Virus genome (UHGV): UHGV-1351279
DNA: 64,000 nt
Reading direction: 5' to 3' (one strand)
DNA from: a virus
Numbering within the stretch: position 1 is the first letter of the stretch; every line of letters starts with the position of its first letter. The position numbers and the translations under genes were made by a program. Shown here piece by piece: positions 56,190-61,338 of the stretch. The notes beneath the pieces are model-generated. The model was not told the DNA's origin. It ran no database searches and saw only the letters and a program-made list of their open reading frames with translations.

Positions 56190-56440
56190 ATACTATCAAT
56201 TATATTTTTTACTAATTTATCTGTGTTCTCTGAGAGTTTCTTGGATATTATCTTTAGTATATCTAATGACAAATCTTCATCTACACAAAGTGTAAAAGAC
56301 TCTCCTATTTCATTGAAGAAAGATACTTTACCTTCATACCTATCTTTTTGTTTTTCTTCTTCTTTTTCAAAAGAGTAACCTTTTTTAAATTCTAATGAAA
56401 ACTCTTTTATTCTAAAATTCTTATTCATAATTAATGACAT
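56186..56440 (-). CDS. hypothetical small protein
   Basis: 84-aa ORF overlapping the polymerase start. Confidence 0.35.
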   Translation of the reverse strand: MSLIMNKNFRIKEFSLEFKKGYSFEKEEEKQKDRYEGKVSFFNEIGESFTLCVDEDLSLDILKIISKKLSENTDKLVKNIIDSI

Positions 56441-59400
56441 TCTGCATAATTAACTCCAAAGTCTGCACTTATATCCATTGGTATTGAAAACTTTATTTTA
56501 TCATTTACTTTTGAAATACACTCTTTTAGATATTTTAATATACTATCTTTAGAGATATTATTATTAAAATAACATAAGTACTCATCATGTATCTGAAGCA
56601 TTACTGTATTTACTCTTTTTCTTACTTCTTGTAAGTAACAATCAAAAACAAATACAGCAGTACTTTGATTTAGTGATGAAAATATATCTTTAAAATACCT
56701 AAGTGAAATCCAAAAGTTACTTACAGGATTAAGTATATACATAGTATTTACAGTTTGTAAAAAACTGTTTTGTAATTTTTGACACCTTTTCTTTTCTTTC
56801 TTACTATTGTCTTTAGGTAAAAAATCTACTGTCTTATATACTTTTACTTCCCCTGTTTTGTGTATTACTTTCAATAAGAGGTCTTTCTCTACATCTAACA
56901 CAGATTTATTCATAGTCCAATAACCATCTAATATAGTCTCTGCTTCTTCTTTTGTACAATCTAAGTTTTTAGCTAATGTTGGAGCTCCAACTTTATATAC
57001 AGAAGAATTTCCTGTTATAACTACTAAATCATTTTGTTTTGCAATAAAAGTTTTATTTTTATTGTTTACACAAAACACATCTGTATACCTACTAAAATCT
57101 TTTTTTAGTTTTTGACCTGTTATGTTTCTCCTATTTCTTATAAAGACATCAACACAAACATTATTTTTATAAACTTTTCCTTTTGATAATTTGTAAAAGT
57201 ACCCATTTAAAGTTAAAGCTAAACAAAAAGCATCTAATATTTTACCCTTATTTTGAGTAAATATCTTTTGACCCTCTTTTTTATGACCATCTCCTTTTAA
57301 CATGTGTATTATGAACTCTTCTCTTATGTCATGTGGTATGTTTATTATAAGGTTAGTGTAATCTATGTCTTTTTTATTTCTTTCAGGTAAATTAAGTCTG
57401 TAAAACAAACTTCTTATTTCTGATGGTGATAGGTCATAGTAAGTAAGTCCATCTTTTCTTGTATAAGTTCTGTATTTATAATTATTCAATACTTTTTCTA
57501 AATCTTCTTTGTTACTTTTTTGACCTATTTTACATATAACATGTCTTTTTTTACCATTAGAATTAGATGTACCATTTAATTTATCAGACCATTCTACATA
57601 ACCTTCTGTTAGAATCCAAGCTAAAAGCCTTATATCTTCAACATTGTAATCTCTGTTTGTGTTTTTATAAGGTGCTGAAACAATTATTTTATCATTTTTG
57701 TTTATATCTTTTGTTTCAACAAAAACGTTTTTATAATATGTTTCCTTGTTTTTTGATGTTATTTTTTTAGAAGAAAACCATTTATGGTTTGGTGTACATT
57801 CAAAAGAAAAATGACTATTATGTAAGCTTATAACTTCTTGTTTTTCAAAATAGGGTATAGAGTCTATTTTTACAACTTCTAATTCATTTAATTCTGTATT
57901 ATAAGAAAAAATGCAATCATCTAATTTTAGTTGCTCATATTTTTTCCAACCCTCTGTTGTTAAAATTTCTGTTATATCAGTTGGCAAACAAAAATTTACT
58001 ATTTTAGCCTTATTTCTCATAGTTTTTAATTCTAAAAATTCTTTTTTTTCATCTTCATTTTTTTCTTCTTTTTTATCTAATTCTTTATATCTATTAGCTT
58101 GTTTTTCACTCATTAAACCTGAAAATTTTGCAATTTCAATATGTGCATCATATCCTGGAACTCTTTTTTTATTTACATAATCAGGGTCAAATTTGTACAT
58201 ATAATTATCTTGAGTTGTTGCTTCAGCTGCTGATAAGTCAGAACCACACAGTATAGTATTTTCTTTAGGAGAAAGAATTAAACCTCTAATCTCTTTACCA
58301 TAAAAGGTATTTGGTTTAGGTAAATTACTAATAGGTTTTCTGTGTAGAAATCTAAAGGTATTTGATAAACCTCCAGCAGTAGCATAAACACAATTATTCT
58401 TGTCCATACTTTCCATAAAAGACTTAAACACTCCTATCCTATGAGTTATTAAAGAAAGGTCATTAAACAGCTCTATTTCTGGTACTATTTCTATTAATTT
58501 TTTTACAGAATTACATATTTTACCATTATCATCATAAATCTGTTCTACCTCTTTTTTAGTACCTTTTTTCTTATCTTTTACTGTTTTATAAGTACAAGGT
58601 ATCCAACCTAATGAGTAAAACCATTTTTTTACCTGGTCTACACTTCCTGGATTAGGTTCTTCCTCTTCACATATTAAAGTAACTATTCCTTCATAATCTT
58701 CAGGTAATTCTTGTTCTTGTAAAATAGCTAACCACTTTTTACCTGCTTCACTCAAAGAACCATCTTTCTTAGTCATTTTATTGGGTTTAGTTACCTCTTT
58801 GTATTTATATACTTTAGGCATTATTCCTTTTAAAATTTCTACTTTTTCATTATAGATTGTTTCAAGCTCATCTAAAGATTTGTAAAGTAATTTCGTATCT
58901 ACTTTTATCTTTACTTCTTCTTGCTCTCTTAGACAATCCATTTTGAAGTTTAAATAGTTAATGATTCTTTCTTTATCCTCCTGTTTAGAATATAGTTTAT
59001 GAAGAAAAATTATTTGATTGTGAAATAATCTCTGATTAATCTCAACATCTTCACTGCACCTGTGAATATATTCCTCAATAGTTAGATTACTCCAATCAGA
59101 TATTTTAGGTTTAGGTACTCCAAATTCTTCTCCAAAGGATTCTAATCCATGAGATTTTCTCCCTATATATAAATACCATGATAATCCCATAGTATCTATA
59201 ATTTTAAGCTCCTTTGGCTTTTTCCAACCTAATAATTTTTTTAATACAGGTAAATCAAATCTTAGAATGTTATGCCCAATTAATGTTTCTTGTTTATCTA
59301 AAAAGGTGATAATATCATTAGGATTCACTAAAGCTCCCTTTTCTAATAAAATACCTTTTTCATAAATTTGATAACAAAAACAATGTAGTTTTGTTACCTC

Positions 59401-59445
59401 ATCTAATAAGCCATCACACTCCAAATCAAATATTGTGTAACTCAT
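56431..59445 (-). CDS. family-A DNA polymerase with 3'-5' proofreading exonuclease, interrupted by an intein
   Basis: Exo I IFDLECDGL, Exo II-like HNILRFDLPVL, motif A CGSDLSAAE (DxSxxE), motif B RNKAKIVNF//SVYKVGAPTLAKNL split by an insertion, motif C LQIHDEY. Confidence 0.65.
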   Translation of the reverse strand: MSYTIFDLECDGLLDEVTKLHCFCYQIYEKGILLEKGALVNPNDIITFLDKQETLIGHNILRFDLPVLKKLLGWKKPKELKIIDTMGLSWYLYIGRKSHGLESFGEEFGVPKPKISDWSNLTIEEYIHRCSEDVEINQRLFHNQIIFLHKLYSKQEDKERIINYLNFKMDCLREQEEVKIKVDTKLLYKSLDELETIYNEKVEILKGIMPKVYKYKEVTKPNKMTKKDGSLSEAGKKWLAILQEQELPEDYEGIVTLICEEEEPNPGSVDQVKKWFYSLGWIPCTYKTVKDKKKGTKKEVEQIYDDNGKICNSVKKLIEIVPEIELFNDLSLITHRIGVFKSFMESMDKNNCVYATAGGLSNTFRFLHRKPISNLPKPNTFYGKEIRGLILSPKENTILCGSDLSAAEATTQDNYMYKFDPDYVNKKRVPGYDAHIEIAKFSGLMSEKQANRYKELDKKEEKNEDEKKEFLELKTMRNKAKIVNFCLPTDITEILTTEGWKKYEQLKLDDCIFSYNTELNELEVVKIDSIPYFEKQEVISLHNSHFSFECTPNHKWFSSKKITSKNKETYYKNVFVETKDINKNDKIIVSAPYKNTNRDYNVEDIRLLAWILTEGYVEWSDKLNGTSNSNGKKRHVICKIGQKSNKEDLEKVLNNYKYRTYTRKDGLTYYDLSPSEIRSLFYRLNLPERNKKDIDYTNLIINIPHDIREEFIIHMLKGDGHKKEGQKIFTQNKGKILDAFCLALTLNGYFYKLSKGKVYKNNVCVDVFIRNRRNITGQKLKKDFSRYTDVFCVNNKNKTFIAKQNDLVVITGNSSVYKVGAPTLAKNLDCTKEEAETILDGYWTMNKSVLDVEKDLLLKVIHKTGEVKVYKTVDFLPKDNSKKEKKRCQKLQNSFLQTVNTMYILNPVSNFWISLRYFKDIFSSLNQSTAVFVFDCYLQEVRKRVNTVMLQIHDEYLCYFNNNISKDSILKYLKECISKVNDKIKFSIPMDISADFGVNYAECH
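57007..57990 (-). mobile_element. intein (328 aa) with LAGLIDADG-type homing endonuclease inserted in Pol A motif B
   Basis: Begins with Cys (CLPTDITEIL, block A). Has the block B TxxH (ECTPNHKWF). LAGLIDADG-like LLAWILTEGY and MLKGDGHK. Ends VVITGN followed by extein Ser. Flanking exteins reconstitute the KxxNF-GxxYG-like motif B. Confidence 0.55.
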
Positions 59446-59447
59446 TG

Positions 59448-60029
59448 CTATTCTTTTAAACCTTGTTCAATAATATTCTCCATCATATTTGAGTTTATAG
59501 TTCTTGTACCATCAGGGTTATATTTAATACACAATCTCAAATCTTTTAGTTTACTCCATTTACCTCTTGCAAATAAGTTTGGGTCTACTAAATAAACAGA
59601 TTTTGATATTGGTATTAATATATTCTCTTTCTTTAGCTTAGATATAGCAACATCAATTGTTTCTATTTTTAATCCTGTGTCCTTAGACATAAGAATTTTT
59701 GTGTCTTTTACTGCTATAAACTTATTATCATACCCCATTCTAAGAACTATTGAATATAGTACCAAAGAAACATTTTTCTCTAATGAGAATATTCTTTTTA
59801 TATCACTTAAATATAATTTTAGAAAGTCAGGCTCTGTTGATACAATTGCTGTTTTAAAGTTTTTTACTTTTAAAACTTCTCCTGTATCATTATTGATTTC
59901 AATGGTTTCTTCTTCATAAGTTACCTTTTTCACTTTTTCTTGCTTAGGTTTATTCAACCTATTTACTTTTGTTACTTTCATTTCTAATAGCTTTTCTAAT
60001 TCCCTGCAAAGGTATGTAATATTTTCCAC
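59448..60029 (-). CDS. hypothetical protein adjacent to dyad-repeat array (candidate DNA-binding/replication initiation factor)
   Basis: 193 aa. GTG start at 60027-60029 per track. Assignment is by position only. Confidence 0.35.
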   Translation of the reverse strand: MENITYLCRELEKLLEMKVTKVNRLNKPKQEKVKKVTYEEETIEINNDTGEVLKVKNFKTAIVSTEPDFLKLYLSDIKRIFSLEKNVSLVLYSIVLRMGYDNKFIAVKDTKILMSKDTGLKIETIDVAISKLKKENILIPISKSVYLVDPNLFARGKWSKLKDLRLCIKYNPDGTRTINSNMMENIIEQGLKE

Positions 60030-60140
60030 TTATGATATTTCTTTAGTACAGTTTAACAAATCTCTTCAAGCTTATGGTAGCCATAAGTGAGACTTATGGT
60101 AATCATAAGTTCAACTTATCATAACCATAAGTTAGACTTA
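60028..60140. promoter_or_regulatory. array of dyad-symmetric ACTTATGG / CCATAAGT half-sites (candidate replication origin or operator)
   Basis: CTTATGGtagCCATAAG (60071-60087), ACTTATGgtaatCATAAGT (60092-60110) and ACTTATcataaccATAAGT (60114-60132), plus a solo ACTTATG at 60028-60034. Lies inside a 363-nt non-coding gap. Confidence 0.5.
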
Positions 60141-60392
60141 GCTTCAAATGGAATACAAAAGCCTGATTATCATTGGGTTATAAGAGAGGTAAAGTGTAAA
60201 TTCCTTCTTTTATTATTTTATTGTATAGTGTAAAGTCCATATATTTTATACAAAAAATAAAAAGGAAAGTGAGGTAATTAAAGGGCAGAATTAACTACCC
60301 TTTAATATACCAATGTTATGGCAACTTAGAAACTCTACTCCAAAGATACATTCACACATATCAGTTTCTTTAAGTCATAACACAGTGGAATC

Positions 60393-61008: not shown

Positions 61009-61338
61009 GGTATTTAGTATTTAAAAAATTGTTATTAAATAAAAAAGGCTTTTAGTACTGATATTTGCCTGTTGCAGTGTTTGTTCCACGATAGTATATA
61101 ATAAGTATTATCTTTATTAGAAACTCAATGTAACCATCCTGTGGATTTTATAACATGCTATTGTTAAAACTAAAGTTGTTTTATAATATTAAACTATTTT
61201 ATTACTACTATCTTCCCGTAACTTACGAGTACAAATTCTTGACTAAAAGCCTTATCCTTTAAGTAGTGTTGTATAAAAAAGTTTCAGGTACTCAGATATA
61301 GAGGCCTTTCCCCGAAACTAAAACATAAATACTACAAA

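What the first reader, a model, noticed from the sequence alone, without database searches (positions are those of the whole stretch)
60028..60140. Cluster of three imperfect 17-19 bp palindromes built from ACTTATGG/CCATAAGT half-sites in the largest intergenic gap next to the polymerase operon
Within the 363-nt non-coding stretch, the sequence cttatggtagccataagtgagacttatggtaatcataagttcaacttatcataaccataagttagactta contains six alternating half-sites forming three consecutive dyads, plus a solo half-site at 60028-60034. This architecture is typical of an operator or origin bound by a dimeric protein (iteron-like). It lies immediately upstream, on the minus strand, of gene 59448..60029 and Pol A, so it is a good candidate for the replication origin or an early/middle switch operator. 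An unrelated hairpin TTAAAGGG-(12)-CCCTTTAA sits at ~60281-60308.
Basis: seen in the sequence. Interest (0 to 1): 0.65.

Follow-up and report, generated by a model that had tools for sequence, protein, structure and literature searches.

The report
Iteron-type replication origin beside phage repL
The three repeated palindromes are real and are most likely the binding sites (iterons) of a plasmid-type replication origin belonging to the adjacent RepL initiator gene of an uncultivated Bacteroidota phage, an arrangement already known from small plasmids.

Summary
Three 22-bp tandem units at 60070-60140 each carry a 19-bp dyad (ACTTAT-N7-ATAAGT). This is the strongest tandem repeat in the 64-kb window and lies in its largest non-coding gap.

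Its true start is probably the ATG at 59981, giving 177 aa.

Almost every RepL lineage I examined has a 22-bp-period array of 2-4.4 units, 55-240 nt upstream of repL:
- related phages;
- circular 2.9-3.5-kb plasmids from metagenomes;
- a Chryseobacterium contig;
- annotated Aeromonas, Klebsiella, Pseudomonas, E. coli and Bacillus plasmids.

The repeat sequence changes with the initiator. A purine-rich box (ATAAAAGAAGRRA, window 60201-60213) usually lies 35-110 nt further upstream.

This layout matches the experimentally defined origin of pHW126/pIGRK/pIGMS31 plasmids: a conserved region plus four 20+2-bp iterons, bound by a RepL-related dimeric Rep.

In sister phages the gene, promoter, repeats and box are exchanged together as one cassette.

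Best reading: a RepL-dependent origin with a likely autoregulatory role (confidence about 0.65). It is a new member of a known kind. GC skew neither supports nor refutes this. RepL binding and origin activity remain untested.

The parts
60114..60132 (-). Iteron unit 1, furthest from repL. Minus strand reads ACTTATGGTTATGATAAGT: a 19-bp imperfect dyad with a strong left half-site and a degenerate right half.
   Evidence: It sits at -151 from the repL ATG in the window and in relatives L001, L002, L004 and L005.
60092..60110 (-). Iteron unit 2. Minus strand reads ACTTATGATTACCATAAGT.
   Evidence: It sits at -129 from the ATG, 22 bp from unit 1.
60070..60088 (-). Iteron unit 3, nearest the promoter. 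Minus strand reads ACTTATGGCTACCATAAGC. It is the most palindromic unit, like the last unit of the plasmid arrays.
   Evidence: Plasmid arrays end in an inverted half-site followed by AACGAC.
60046..60064 (.). Conserved spacer element GTACAGTTTAACAAATCTC between the array and the solo half-site. Function unknown.
   Evidence: Nearly invariant in close relatives. Present in inverted orientation in L055.
60028..60035 (-). Solo half-site (minus strand TCATAAGT), lying in the spacer of the predicted repL promoter. Candidate autoregulatory site (inference).
   Evidence: Conserved in L001-L005 but not in L006.
60007..60014 (-). Predicted Bacteroidota-type -7 promoter box TACCTTTG (consensus TAnnTTTG) for repL and PolA.
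   Evidence: The same box precedes repL in L006 and L055 (TACCTTTG), L012 (TATATTTG), L020 (TACTTTTG), L185 (TACATTTG) and L180 (TATCTTTG). That this motif is the Bacteroides consensus is from my own knowledge.
59448..59981 (-). repL: a 177-aa RepL-family replication initiator with a winged-helix core. The ORF as listed extends to a GTG at 60029 (193 aa), but the ATG at 59981 is the likelier start.
   Evidence: Pfam PF05732, E 2e-11, 44.1 bits against a cutoff of 20.3. Plasmid homologues and most database gene calls start at the aligned Met. In the AF2 model the wHTH core, residues 58-132, has pLDDT around 90. It is the only RepL in the window.
60201..60213 (-). Purine-rich conserved box ATAAAAGAAGGAA, about 60 nt upstream of the first iteron. 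Candidate equivalent of the 'conserved region' (CR) of pHW126-type origins.
   Evidence: The only exact match to ATAAAAGAAGRRA in 64 kb. Present with 1 mismatch or fewer in 7 of 9 Bacteroidota RepL lineages at -161 to -276 from the ATG. It is among the four 10-mers tied for top rank in a de novo count: 9 of 13 lineages, against a null maximum of 5-7.
60201..60260 (.). The most AT-rich stretch of the locus (17% GC). A weak candidate for a DNA-unwinding region. It partly overlaps the terminator T-run.
   Evidence: Below the 1st percentile of 60-bp windows in the 64 kb. This stretch varies among relatives, which carry a roughly 110-bp insertion here.
60252..60306 (-). Terminator-like hairpin (arms 60277-60288 and 60295-60306) followed on the minus strand by a T-run (60252-60264). 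It ends the upstream transcription unit and marks the right edge of the exchangeable cassette.
   Evidence: I17. L005 has a different GC-rich hairpin plus T-run at the same position. The cassette boundary lies at 60253. The strict terminator scan did not call it.
56431..59445 (-). Family A DNA polymerase (1004 aa), immediately downstream of repL and probably co-transcribed with it. Context gene.
   Evidence: phrog_17, E 1e-79. Weak Pfam DNA_pol_A hit.

Best explanation
The array is the iteron part of a RepL-type replication origin. The proposed steps below are inferred, not shown.

1. RepL is made from the promoter about 56 bp downstream of the array. It binds through its winged-helix domain, probably as a dimer, to each 19-bp dyad.
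2. The units repeat every 22 bp, about two helical turns. The three bound complexes therefore sit on one face of the DNA and can bind cooperatively.
3. Together with the purine-rich box about 60 nt upstream (60201-60213) and the adjacent AT-rich DNA, this complex starts replication. It would do so either by local melting and helicase loading (theta type) or by a RepL nick that starts rolling-circle synthesis. Both kinds of intermediate were seen for the related plasmid pIGMS31.
4. The solo half-site inside the promoter spacer would let RepL repress its own synthesis.

What is shown here:
- the repeat itself;
- the RepL identity of the neighbouring gene;
- the recurrence of box + 22-bp repeats + promoter + rep across the family;
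- the change of repeat sequence with the initiator;
- the exchange of all these parts together as one cassette.

What is inferred: RepL binding, dimer stoichiometry, origin firing and autoregulation.
For: 1. The neighbouring gene is RepL (PF05732, 44 bits against a cutoff of 20.3). It has a confident winged-helix core and no nuclease-like fold.

2. A 22-bp-period array lies upstream of repL in independent lineages:
- phages L001-L005 and L006 (64% aa identity; same dyads at the same positions);
- circular 2.9-kb Mob_Pre plasmids L011-L014, with 3 x AAYRTTGTTACTCGTGGGTGTG;
- the 3.5-kb circular plasmid L186 and its relative L185, with 2.5 units plus an inverted half-site;
- Chryseobacterium contig L020, 3.1 units;
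- L180, and L184, a second PolA/DnaB phage-like contig with dyad units;
- annotated Aeromonas, Klebsiella, Pseudomonas, E. coli and Bacillus plasmids with 2.9-4.4 units. The Aeromonas/Klebsiella and Bacillus units are themselves 19-bp dyads (7-5-7).

3. Control: only 14 period 21-23 TRF hits in 1.03 Mb of unrelated viral DNA, which is 0.006 per 450 nt.

4. In the small circular plasmids RepL is the only Rep and the array is the only tandem repeat.

5. Repeat class tracks the predicted recognition helix. In rep'-type sister phages the repeats differ between 97% and 74% rep' alleles.

6. Window 59440-60252 (gene, promoter, iterons, box) is replaced as a block in L055, between flanks that are 93-97% identical.

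7. The purine box is conserved across the family.

8. Experimental precedent:
- The pIGRK origin is a conserved region plus four 20-bp repeats with 2-nt spacers. It is bound by homodimeric RepR, which also autoregulates (PMC6854812).
- pIGMS31 RepM binds the iterons, nicks upstream of the conserved region, and shows both rolling-circle and theta intermediates. These Reps are distantly related to RepL (bioRxiv 10.1101/2022.12.05.519187).

9. Changes within the dyads are never compensatory, and the left half-site is far better conserved than the right. This is the behaviour of a protein-binding site, not of a hairpin.
Against: - No binding or replication data exist for this phage or for any Bacteroidota RepL.
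- The cumulative GC-skew minimum is 3-4 kb upstream of the array, near a 1.09-kb divergent non-coding region outside the window. That region is an alternative origin candidate.
- No DnaA box lies nearby.
- The AT-rich stretch is 60 nt from the array, overlaps a terminator T-run and varies among relatives.
- Three sister phages that carry a very different rep' allele still keep one perfect ACTTATGG dyad. It could be a recent relic, or it could mean that another protein reads the dyad.
- The co-variation of repeats with the recognition helix is confounded by shared ancestry.
- The purine-box motif was defined after looking at the sequences, and it is A-rich in AT-rich DNA.
- In phage P1, the classical RepL phage, the origin lies inside repL rather than upstream (as cited in PMC10983915).
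Confidence: 0.65

Rival explanations
1. The array is only a transcriptional operator. RepL, or another regulator, binds the dyads to control the repL-polA promoter (autoregulation or a temporal switch), and replication starts elsewhere, for example in the 1.09-kb divergent intergenic region upstream of the window.
For: - Three phased 17-19-bp dyads is also the architecture of lambda-type tripartite operators (my own knowledge).
- Reps of the pHW126 family do autoregulate through repeats related to their iterons (PMC6854812; bioRxiv 10.1101/2022.12.05.519187).
- A solo half-site sits inside the predicted promoter spacer.
- The GC-skew minimum and a large divergent gap lie 3-6 kb upstream.
Against: - The array ends about 56 bp upstream of the -7 box and does not overlap the core promoter.
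- The 2.9-3.5-kb circular plasmids must have an origin somewhere, and the homologous array is their only repeat.
- The divergent gap has no tandem repeats and no dyad motif.
- No repressor-like gene is adjacent.
- The conserved purine box further upstream has no obvious role in a simple operator.
Confidence: 0.2
2. The dyads are read by a protein other than RepL, such as a host factor or another phage DNA-binding protein. Their position next to repL would then be circumstantial.
For: - One perfect dyad persists in three sister phages whose rep gene has been replaced by an allele only 22% identical (A4 alignment), with a different recognition helix.
- The spacer element GTACAGYTWAACAAATCTC travels with that dyad.
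Against: - The junction in L195/L196 is colinear with the window: unit 1, then a deletion, then the promoter-proximal segment. This fits a leftover of the old origin.
- The flanks are equally invariant, so the dyad's conservation carries no special weight.
- Phased 22-bp repeats upstream of repL occur in plasmids that share no protein with the phage except RepL.
- The half-site TTATGGTA recurs in the iterons of plasmid L185, whose only shared gene is repL.
Confidence: 0.08
3. The palindromes act as RNA or DNA hairpins, for example a 5'-leader structure, an attenuator or a cruciform, rather than as duplex protein-binding sites.
For: The minus-strand RNA folds better than shuffled versions (-26.1 kcal/mol, z = -4.3). 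This is expected for any set of inverted repeats.
Against: - Among 13 distinct units from 8 genomes, the inner stem positions change on one side only (G:C to G:G, G:T, G:A, A:C), with no compensatory pair.
- The array lies upstream of the predicted promoter, after a terminator, so it is probably poorly transcribed.
- Homologous arrays in many plasmids are direct repeats with no hairpin potential.
- No Rfam family matches.
Confidence: 0.04

Closest known systems
Origins of the pHW126 plasmid family (pHW126, pIGRK, pIGMS31; Gammaproteobacteria)
   Same: - Small winged-helix Rep, distantly related to RepL.
- The origin lies directly upstream of rep. It consists of a short conserved region followed by tandem 20-bp repeats with 2-nt spacers, which is a 22-bp period.
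- The Rep forms homodimers, binds the repeats and autoregulates (PMC6854812; bioRxiv 10.1101/2022.12.05.519187; PMC2831885).
- The phage locus has the same order: conserved box, 22-bp repeats, promoter, rep.
   Different: - Three units instead of four.
- Each phage unit is itself a 19-bp dyad.
- The box lies about 60 nt from the repeats rather than next to them, and I did not compare its sequence with the pHW126 conserved region.
- The host is Bacteroidota.
- The replicon is a roughly 97-kb phage, not a 2-3-kb plasmid.
- No ssi-like palindrome was identified.
- I could not test direct homology of phage RepL to RepR/RepM, because pIGRK is not in the collections.
Small RepL (PF05732) plasmids with MobV/Mob_Pre relaxases found here (metagenomic Bacteroidota plasmids; Aeromonas, Klebsiella, Pseudomonas, E. 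coli and Bacillus plasmids in PLSDB)
   Same: - Homologous initiator, 29-50% identity.
- 22-bp-period arrays of 2.5-4.4 units, 70-240 nt upstream of repL.
- The Aeromonas/Klebsiella and Bacillus units are 19-bp dyads like the phage's.
- A purine box lies upstream.
   Different: - The repeat sequences are unrelated, apart from a shared TTATGGTA half-site with L185.
- Most Bacteroidota plasmid units are direct repeats, and only the last one is palindromic.
- To my knowledge these plasmid origins are themselves uncharacterised.
Bacteriophage lambda origin (ori-lambda with O protein)
   Same: This is a functional analogy only. It is a tandem array of roughly 19-bp sites, each with internal dyad symmetry and each bound by an initiator dimer, next to AT-rich DNA, in a phage (my own knowledge).
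   Different: - Lambda has four sites, and they lie inside the O gene.
- The O protein belongs to a different family; Pfam gives only RepL here.
Phage P1 lytic replicon (RepL/oriL) and the proposed crAssphage RepL origins
   Same: - A phage that uses a RepL-named initiator.
- For crAssphage, an origin directly upstream of a repL gene was predicted with Ori-Finder and coverage data (PMC10983915).
   Different: - The P1 origin lies within repL, and no iterons are described for it.
- The crAssphage study reports no iterons (0 occurrences).
- Its repL genes sit at the ends of the replication gene block, whereas here repL lies about 5 kb into the block.
- I could not examine crAssphage, because its accessions are not in the collection.
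Classical iteron theta plasmids (Rep_3 family: pSC101, F, R6K, P1 oriR)
   Same: Phased 17-22-bp repeats upstream of rep. The Rep acts both as initiator and as autorepressor (reviewed in PMC4980987).
   Different: - The initiator here is a single-winged-helix RepL, not a two-domain Rep_3 protein.
- No DnaA boxes are present.

Membership tests
RepL-type iteron origin (pHW126/pIGRK-like architecture) | Initiator is a small winged-helix protein of the RepL superfamily, encoded immediately downstream of the origin | tested here: met
   PF05732, 44.1 bits against a cutoff of 20.3. AF2 gives a confident wHTH core. The gene starts 89 nt after the array.
RepL-type iteron origin (pHW126/pIGRK-like architecture) | Three or more tandem repeats of about 20 bp with about 2-bp spacers (22-bp period) upstream of rep | tested here: met
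   Three units at exactly 22-bp spacing. TRF gives period 22, 3.2 copies, score 91. The same period occurs in 12 further lineages.
RepL-type iteron origin (pHW126/pIGRK-like architecture) | Short conserved region (CR) upstream of the repeats, shared by family members | tested here: inconclusive
   A purine box ATAAAAGAAGRRA is shared by most lineages. However, it was defined post hoc, it lies 35-110 nt from the repeats, and it was not compared with the published pHW126 CR sequence.
RepL-type iteron origin (pHW126/pIGRK-like architecture) | Rep binds the repeats, and the fragment supports Rep-dependent replication in cis | not testable with these tools
   Needs EMSA or footprinting and a two-plasmid origin assay.
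RepL-type iteron origin (pHW126/pIGRK-like architecture) | Repeat sequence is specific to its Rep (cognate pairs, incompatibility) | tested here: met
   Repeat class follows the predicted recognition helix. The repeats differ between rep' alleles of 97% and 74% identity. The whole module is exchanged as one cassette. This evidence is correlative only.
Classical iteron theta replicon (Rep_3) | Rep_3-family initiator with two winged-helix domains | tested here: not met
   Only RepL is found by Pfam. The model shows a single wHTH core.
Classical iteron theta replicon (Rep_3) | DnaA box or boxes and an AT-rich unwinding element adjacent to the iterons | tested here: not met
   No TTATCCACA within 1 mismatch between 59000 and 60757. 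The AT-rich stretch at 60201-60260 is 60 nt away and overlaps a terminator T-run.
Lambda-type tripartite operator | Three dyads overlapping the regulated promoter or promoters, with an adjacent repressor gene | tested here: not met
   The predicted -7 box at 60007-60014 is 56 bp from the array. The neighbours are RepL and small ORFs with no HTH hits.
Phage P1 lytic replicon | Origin located inside the repL coding sequence | tested here: inconclusive
   No tandem or phased repeats inside repL. An origin without repeats inside the gene cannot be excluded.
pSN2-type rolling-circle plasmids | Double-strand origin with a nick site, a single-strand origin, and ssDNA intermediates | not tested
   No nick-site consensus was available to me, and there is no HUH motif or nuclease fold in the model. 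Nicking by RepL-like RepM has been reported (bioRxiv 10.1101/2022.12.05.519187), but testing it here needs experiments.

The most novel reading that the evidence does not exclude
The RepL-iteron cassette is a plasmid-derived, freely exchangeable replicon. It would let this crAss-like Bacteroidota phage replicate like a plasmid (a phage-plasmid or carrier state, as proposed for crAssphage). Alternatively, it would start rolling-circle concatemer synthesis through a RepL nick at the purine box.

More broadly, 'purine box + 22-bp phased iterons + rep' would be a universal origin grammar of the RepL superfamily. It has not been stated formally before, and it would span plasmids and phages of Bacteroidota, Proteobacteria and Firmicutes.
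Probability: 0.2. Interest if true: 0.7.

Novelty: new member of a known kind. Interest (0 to 1): 0.45.

Why it matters
- **A testable origin.** To my knowledge, replication origins of crAss-like and other Bacteroidota phages have not been mapped experimentally. The only proposal I found, for crAssphage, rests on Ori-Finder and coverage data and mentions no binding sites (PMC10983915). This locus gives a concrete 200-bp candidate: defined protein-binding sites, a defined initiator and clear mutational targets.
- **A shared module.** A plasmid-type replicon module is shared and swapped between small Bacteroidota plasmids and large phages. This bears on the phage-plasmid hypothesis for gut crAss-like phages.
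- **A practical rule.** '22-bp-period repeats 55-240 nt upstream of a PF05732 gene, preceded by a purine box' could be used to annotate origins in thousands of small cryptic plasmids, and to build Bacteroidota vectors.
- **Limits.** The architecture itself is already known from pHW126-type plasmids, so this extends known biology rather than overturning it.

Tried and rejected
- **Single-dyad scan of IMG/VR.** It returned more than 120 isolated chance hits and was uninformative.
- **Two-unit scan.** It recovered only the known relatives. Three further two-dyad hits (L146, L169, L178) lack RepL, so I set them aside as unrelated.
- **blastn against cultured phages.** No match.
- **GC skew.** It follows gene strand. 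The minimum is 3-4 kb away, so I judged it non-discriminating.
- **DnaA boxes.** None nearby.
- **Rfam.** Only a meaningless sub-threshold miRNA hit on the terminator hairpin.
- **RNA folding.** The z-score is significant, but that is trivial for inverted repeats.
- **Structure comparisons.** The PDB sequence search and the Foldseek search gave only generic winged-helix regulators (E > 0.01). They say nothing specific about mechanism.
- **NCBIfam.** No hit.
- **Unavailable records.** crAssphage (NC_024711, JQ995537) and pIGRK (AY543071) are not in the local collections, so I could not make direct comparisons.
- **Second repL copy.** I searched the window for one, as crAssphage has two. None was found.
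- **Second-largest gap, 61009-61338.** No repeats.
- **Divergent 1.09-kb gap outside the window.** No tandem repeats and no dyads.
- **The GTG start at 60029 (193 aa).** I consider it unlikely. The extension contains the conserved promoter box, and the plasmid homologues start at the aligned ATG.
Full report
**1.

The + strand between 60070 and 60140 contains three head-to-tail 22-bp units (D1: 60071, 60093, 60115). Each carries a 19-bp dyad of the form ACTTAT-N7-ATAAGT.
- The first unit has a perfect CTTATGG-TAG-CCATAAG core. The other two have one or two inner mismatches.
- The phased dyad pattern is far beyond chance: 8 hits against 0.69 expected, with 0 of 100 shuffles reaching 8.
- It is the best tandem repeat in the whole window (TRF score 91).
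- The 8-mer alone is not enriched across the window.
- The array lies in the largest non-coding gap of the window, 60030-60392.
- The solo half-site (60028-60034) and the hairpin (60277-60306) are also as described.

**2. Context.**

All genes from about 25.7 kb to the end of the window are on the minus strand.

The gene directly downstream of the array, 59448-60029, matches Pfam RepL (PF05732) at E 2e-11, 44 bits against a cutoff of 20.3. A 1004-aa family A DNA polymerase follows it.

The true repL start is probably the ATG at 59981 (177 aa), for three reasons:
- Most database gene calls use it.
- Plasmid homologues begin at the aligned Met.
- The 16-codon extension contains TACCTTTG at 60007-60014. 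This matches the Bacteroides -7 promoter consensus TAnnTTTG (the consensus is from my own knowledge). The same box precedes repL in every Bacteroidota lineage I looked at.

The hairpin at 60277-60306, with its following T-run on the minus strand, behaves as the terminator of the upstream genes. Relative L005 has a different GC-rich hairpin plus T-run at the same spot.

The phage itself is uncultivated:
- Relatives are 91-97-kb contigs.
- GC content is about 29%.
- The polymerase is only 26-40% identical to those of cultured phages.
- The 4508-aa ORF resembles a virion protein of FpV4-like Flavobacterium phages and Cellulophaga phages at 28% identity.

So this is a Bacteroidota phage of the wider crAss-like assemblage. 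I did not confirm a formal placement in Crassvirales.

**3. Comparative evidence.**

*Close and moderately distant phage relatives.*
- Close relatives (RepL 79-88% identical) keep the array at the same positions (-151, -129 and -107 from the ATG). One of them has lost a unit.
- A more distant phage (L006/L007, RepL 64% identical, about 102 kb) has three dyads of the same type at the same spacing.
- Across 13 distinct units, the left half ACTTATGGT is almost invariant. The right half varies on one side only, and no change is compensatory. This is the pattern of a protein site with a strong and a weak half, not of a hairpin.

*Other RepL lineages.* RepL homologues are abundant on 2-4-kb contigs (216 proteins). 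Several of these contigs are demonstrably circular, with terminal overlaps of 30 or 127 nt. They carry only a Mob_Pre relaxase, RepL and a small ORF. TRF finds a period-22 array of 2.2-4.4 units, 55-240 nt upstream of repL, in:
- these plasmids (L011-L014, L185/L186);
- a Chryseobacterium 4.1-kb contig (L020);
- L180;
- a second PolA/DnaB phage-like contig (L184);
- five of five annotated RepL plasmids I fetched from PLSDB (Aeromonas, Klebsiella, Pseudomonas, E. coli, Bacillus).

Three further lineages (L008, L182 and the rep' phages) have weaker repeats in 22-bp phase.

*Control.* Period 21-23 hits of this strength occur 0.006 times per 450 nt in 1.03 Mb of unrelated viral DNA.

*Unit structure.* The Aeromonas/Klebsiella unit (TGTCACT-GTGAG-AGTGACA) and the Bacillus unit (ATTACAT-GAGGG-ATGTAAT) are 19-bp dyads inside 22-bp units, exactly like the phage's. 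In the Bacteroidota plasmids the units are direct repeats, and only the last, promoter-proximal one becomes a palindrome. In the phage, too, the promoter-proximal unit is the most palindromic.

**4. The repeats go with the initiator.**

- Lineages with the same predicted recognition helix have the same repeat class, and different helices go with different repeats. This is consistent with recognition by RepL, though it is confounded by shared ancestry.
- A natural swap gives a sharper test. In L055 the polymerase (93.5% identical) and the upstream genes plus terminator (96.7%) are conserved. Window 59440-60252, which holds repL, promoter, iterons and box, is replaced by an unrelated 874-bp cassette.
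- That cassette encodes a very distant RepL-like protein, rep' (hhalign E 2.6e-4). It has its own purine box, its own 22-bp-phased repeats and the same type of promoter.
- Two more rep' phages show that these repeats change with rep'. The 97% allele has GACAACACTTCATTGTCTAA x2, and the 74% allele has AAAYACCTAATGGTCTA x2.

**5. A second conserved element.**

A purine-rich box, ATAAAAGAAGRRA, lies 35-110 nt upstream of the first repeat in most lineages.
- It matches with 1 mismatch or fewer in 7 of 9 Bacteroidota lineages.
- The window copy at 60201-60213 is the only exact match in 64 kb.
- An unbiased 10-mer count places ATAAAAGAAG among four 10-mers tied for top rank: 9 of 13 lineages, against a null maximum of 5-7 in 30 shuffles.
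- Related boxes occur in the proteobacterial, Bacillus and rep' modules (ATAAGAGA...).
- The motif was noticed before it was tested, and it is A-rich, so I rate it as supported but not secure.

**6. Comparison with what is known.**

*pHW126 family.* The layout matches the experimentally dissected origins of this family.
- pIGRK has a conserved region of about 20 bp plus four 20-bp repeats separated by 2-nt spacers, upstream of repR. These two elements are the origin. RepR forms homodimers, binds them and represses its own promoter (PMC6854812).
- pIGMS31 RepM also binds the iterons, nicks just upstream of the conserved region, and shows both rolling-circle and theta intermediates. These Reps are distantly related to pSN2 RepL and have a winged helix (bioRxiv 10.1101/2022.12.05.519187; PMC2831885).

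*Other systems.*
- Staphylococcal RepL plasmids are classed as rolling-circle replicons (PMC5703833).
- A Campylobacter RepL plasmid lacks iterons (PMC11389370), so the trait is not universal.
- For crAssphage, an origin upstream of a repL gene was predicted by Ori-Finder and coverage, without mention of binding sites (PMC10983915).
- I found no paper linking Crassvirales with iterons.

*Structure.* The AF2 model of the phage RepL has a confident winged-helix core and poorly predicted termini. Foldseek finds only generic dimeric winged-helix regulators.

**7. Mechanism.**

- Shown: the anatomy, the homology of the initiator, the family-wide module and its exchange as one cassette.
- Inferred: RepL dimers occupy the three in-phase dyads and, together with the purine box and AT-rich DNA (60201-60260, 17% GC), start replication by melting or nicking. 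The solo half-site within the promoter spacer mediates autorepression.
- I give this reading 0.65.

**8. Caveats and rivals.**

- **Skew.** The cumulative GC-skew minimum lies about 3-4 kb upstream. A 1.09-kb divergent gap, outside the window at the equivalent of 65.2-66.3 kb, is another origin candidate. It has no repeats or dyads, and skew here simply follows gene strand.
- **Operator-only reading (0.2).** This cannot be excluded without experiments. Against it, the array does not overlap the promoter, and the homologous arrays are the only repeats in plasmids that must contain an origin.
- **Another binder (0.08).** One perfect dyad survives in all three rep' phages. The junction is colinear with the window, which fits a recent relic, but another binding protein remains possible.
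- **Hairpin function (0.04).** This is disfavoured by the lack of compensatory change and by the direct-repeat homologues.

**9. Verdict.**

This is a real, non-random feature. It is most likely the iteron core of a RepL-type origin: a new member of a known kind in an uncultivated Bacteroidota phage. Its value is as a precise, testable origin candidate and as evidence that plasmids and phages of this phylum share an exchangeable replicon module.

Noticed in passing
L055:2033-2906 against window 59440-60252; also L195 and L196: Sister phages have exchanged the whole repL-plus-control-region cassette for a very distant RepL-like allele (rep', 180 aa, no Pfam hit). The new cassette has its own purine box and its own 22-bp-phased repeats. 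One perfect old-type dyad remains at the junction, and in L055 the adjacent spacer element is inverted.
   Followed up: yes
L143:3700-4786 (window-equivalent about 65196-66282, outside the window): A 1.09-kb non-coding region where the two gene blocks diverge. The first 2 kb or so of genes after it have near-zero GC skew. It has no tandem repeats or dyads. It is an alternative origin or early-promoter region.
   Followed up: partly
L141:10537-13817 and L142:10537-12534, against window 56431-59445: The polymerase gene, intact in the window (1004 aa), is broken up in close relatives. L141 has a 368-aa piece, a SegE-type GIY-YIG homing endonuclease and a 261-aa DNA_pol_A piece. L142 has a 665-aa version. 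L196 has a DUF723 gene inserted between the pieces.
   Followed up: no
L142:16409-18043: A 544-aa protein with a weak intein-splicing domain hit, in the replication block of a close relative.
   Followed up: no
Alignment A1 columns 190-300 (L002-L005, against window about 60250): Four relatives carry an insertion of about 110 bp between the terminator T-run and the purine box. L196 has a different insertion of about 170 bp at the same place. This junction appears to be a hotspot for insertions.
   Followed up: no
window 1679-25625 (+): Three giant ORFs of 4508, 1800 and 1670 aa. The first is 28% identical to a virion structural protein of FpV4-like Flavobacterium phages and Cellulophaga phages. 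The 1800-aa ORF combines DprA-like and Dda-like helicase regions.
   Followed up: partly
L182:3768-6522: A contig that carries both a Rep_3-type replicon and a RepL gene with degenerate 22-bp repeats, next to bacterial two-component genes. It may be a two-replicon plasmid or an integrated element.
   Followed up: no
L185/L186:1954-2247: The circular 3.5-kb RepL plasmid encodes a small protein with a weak Cas2 hit and a protein of about 546 aa with no family assignment.
   Followed up: no
L197:1-3603: A rep'-like gene (39% identical) with a purine box and GGCACT repeats 21 bp apart sits near a tyrosine integrase. This suggests that modules of this kind also occur on integrative elements.
   Followed up: no
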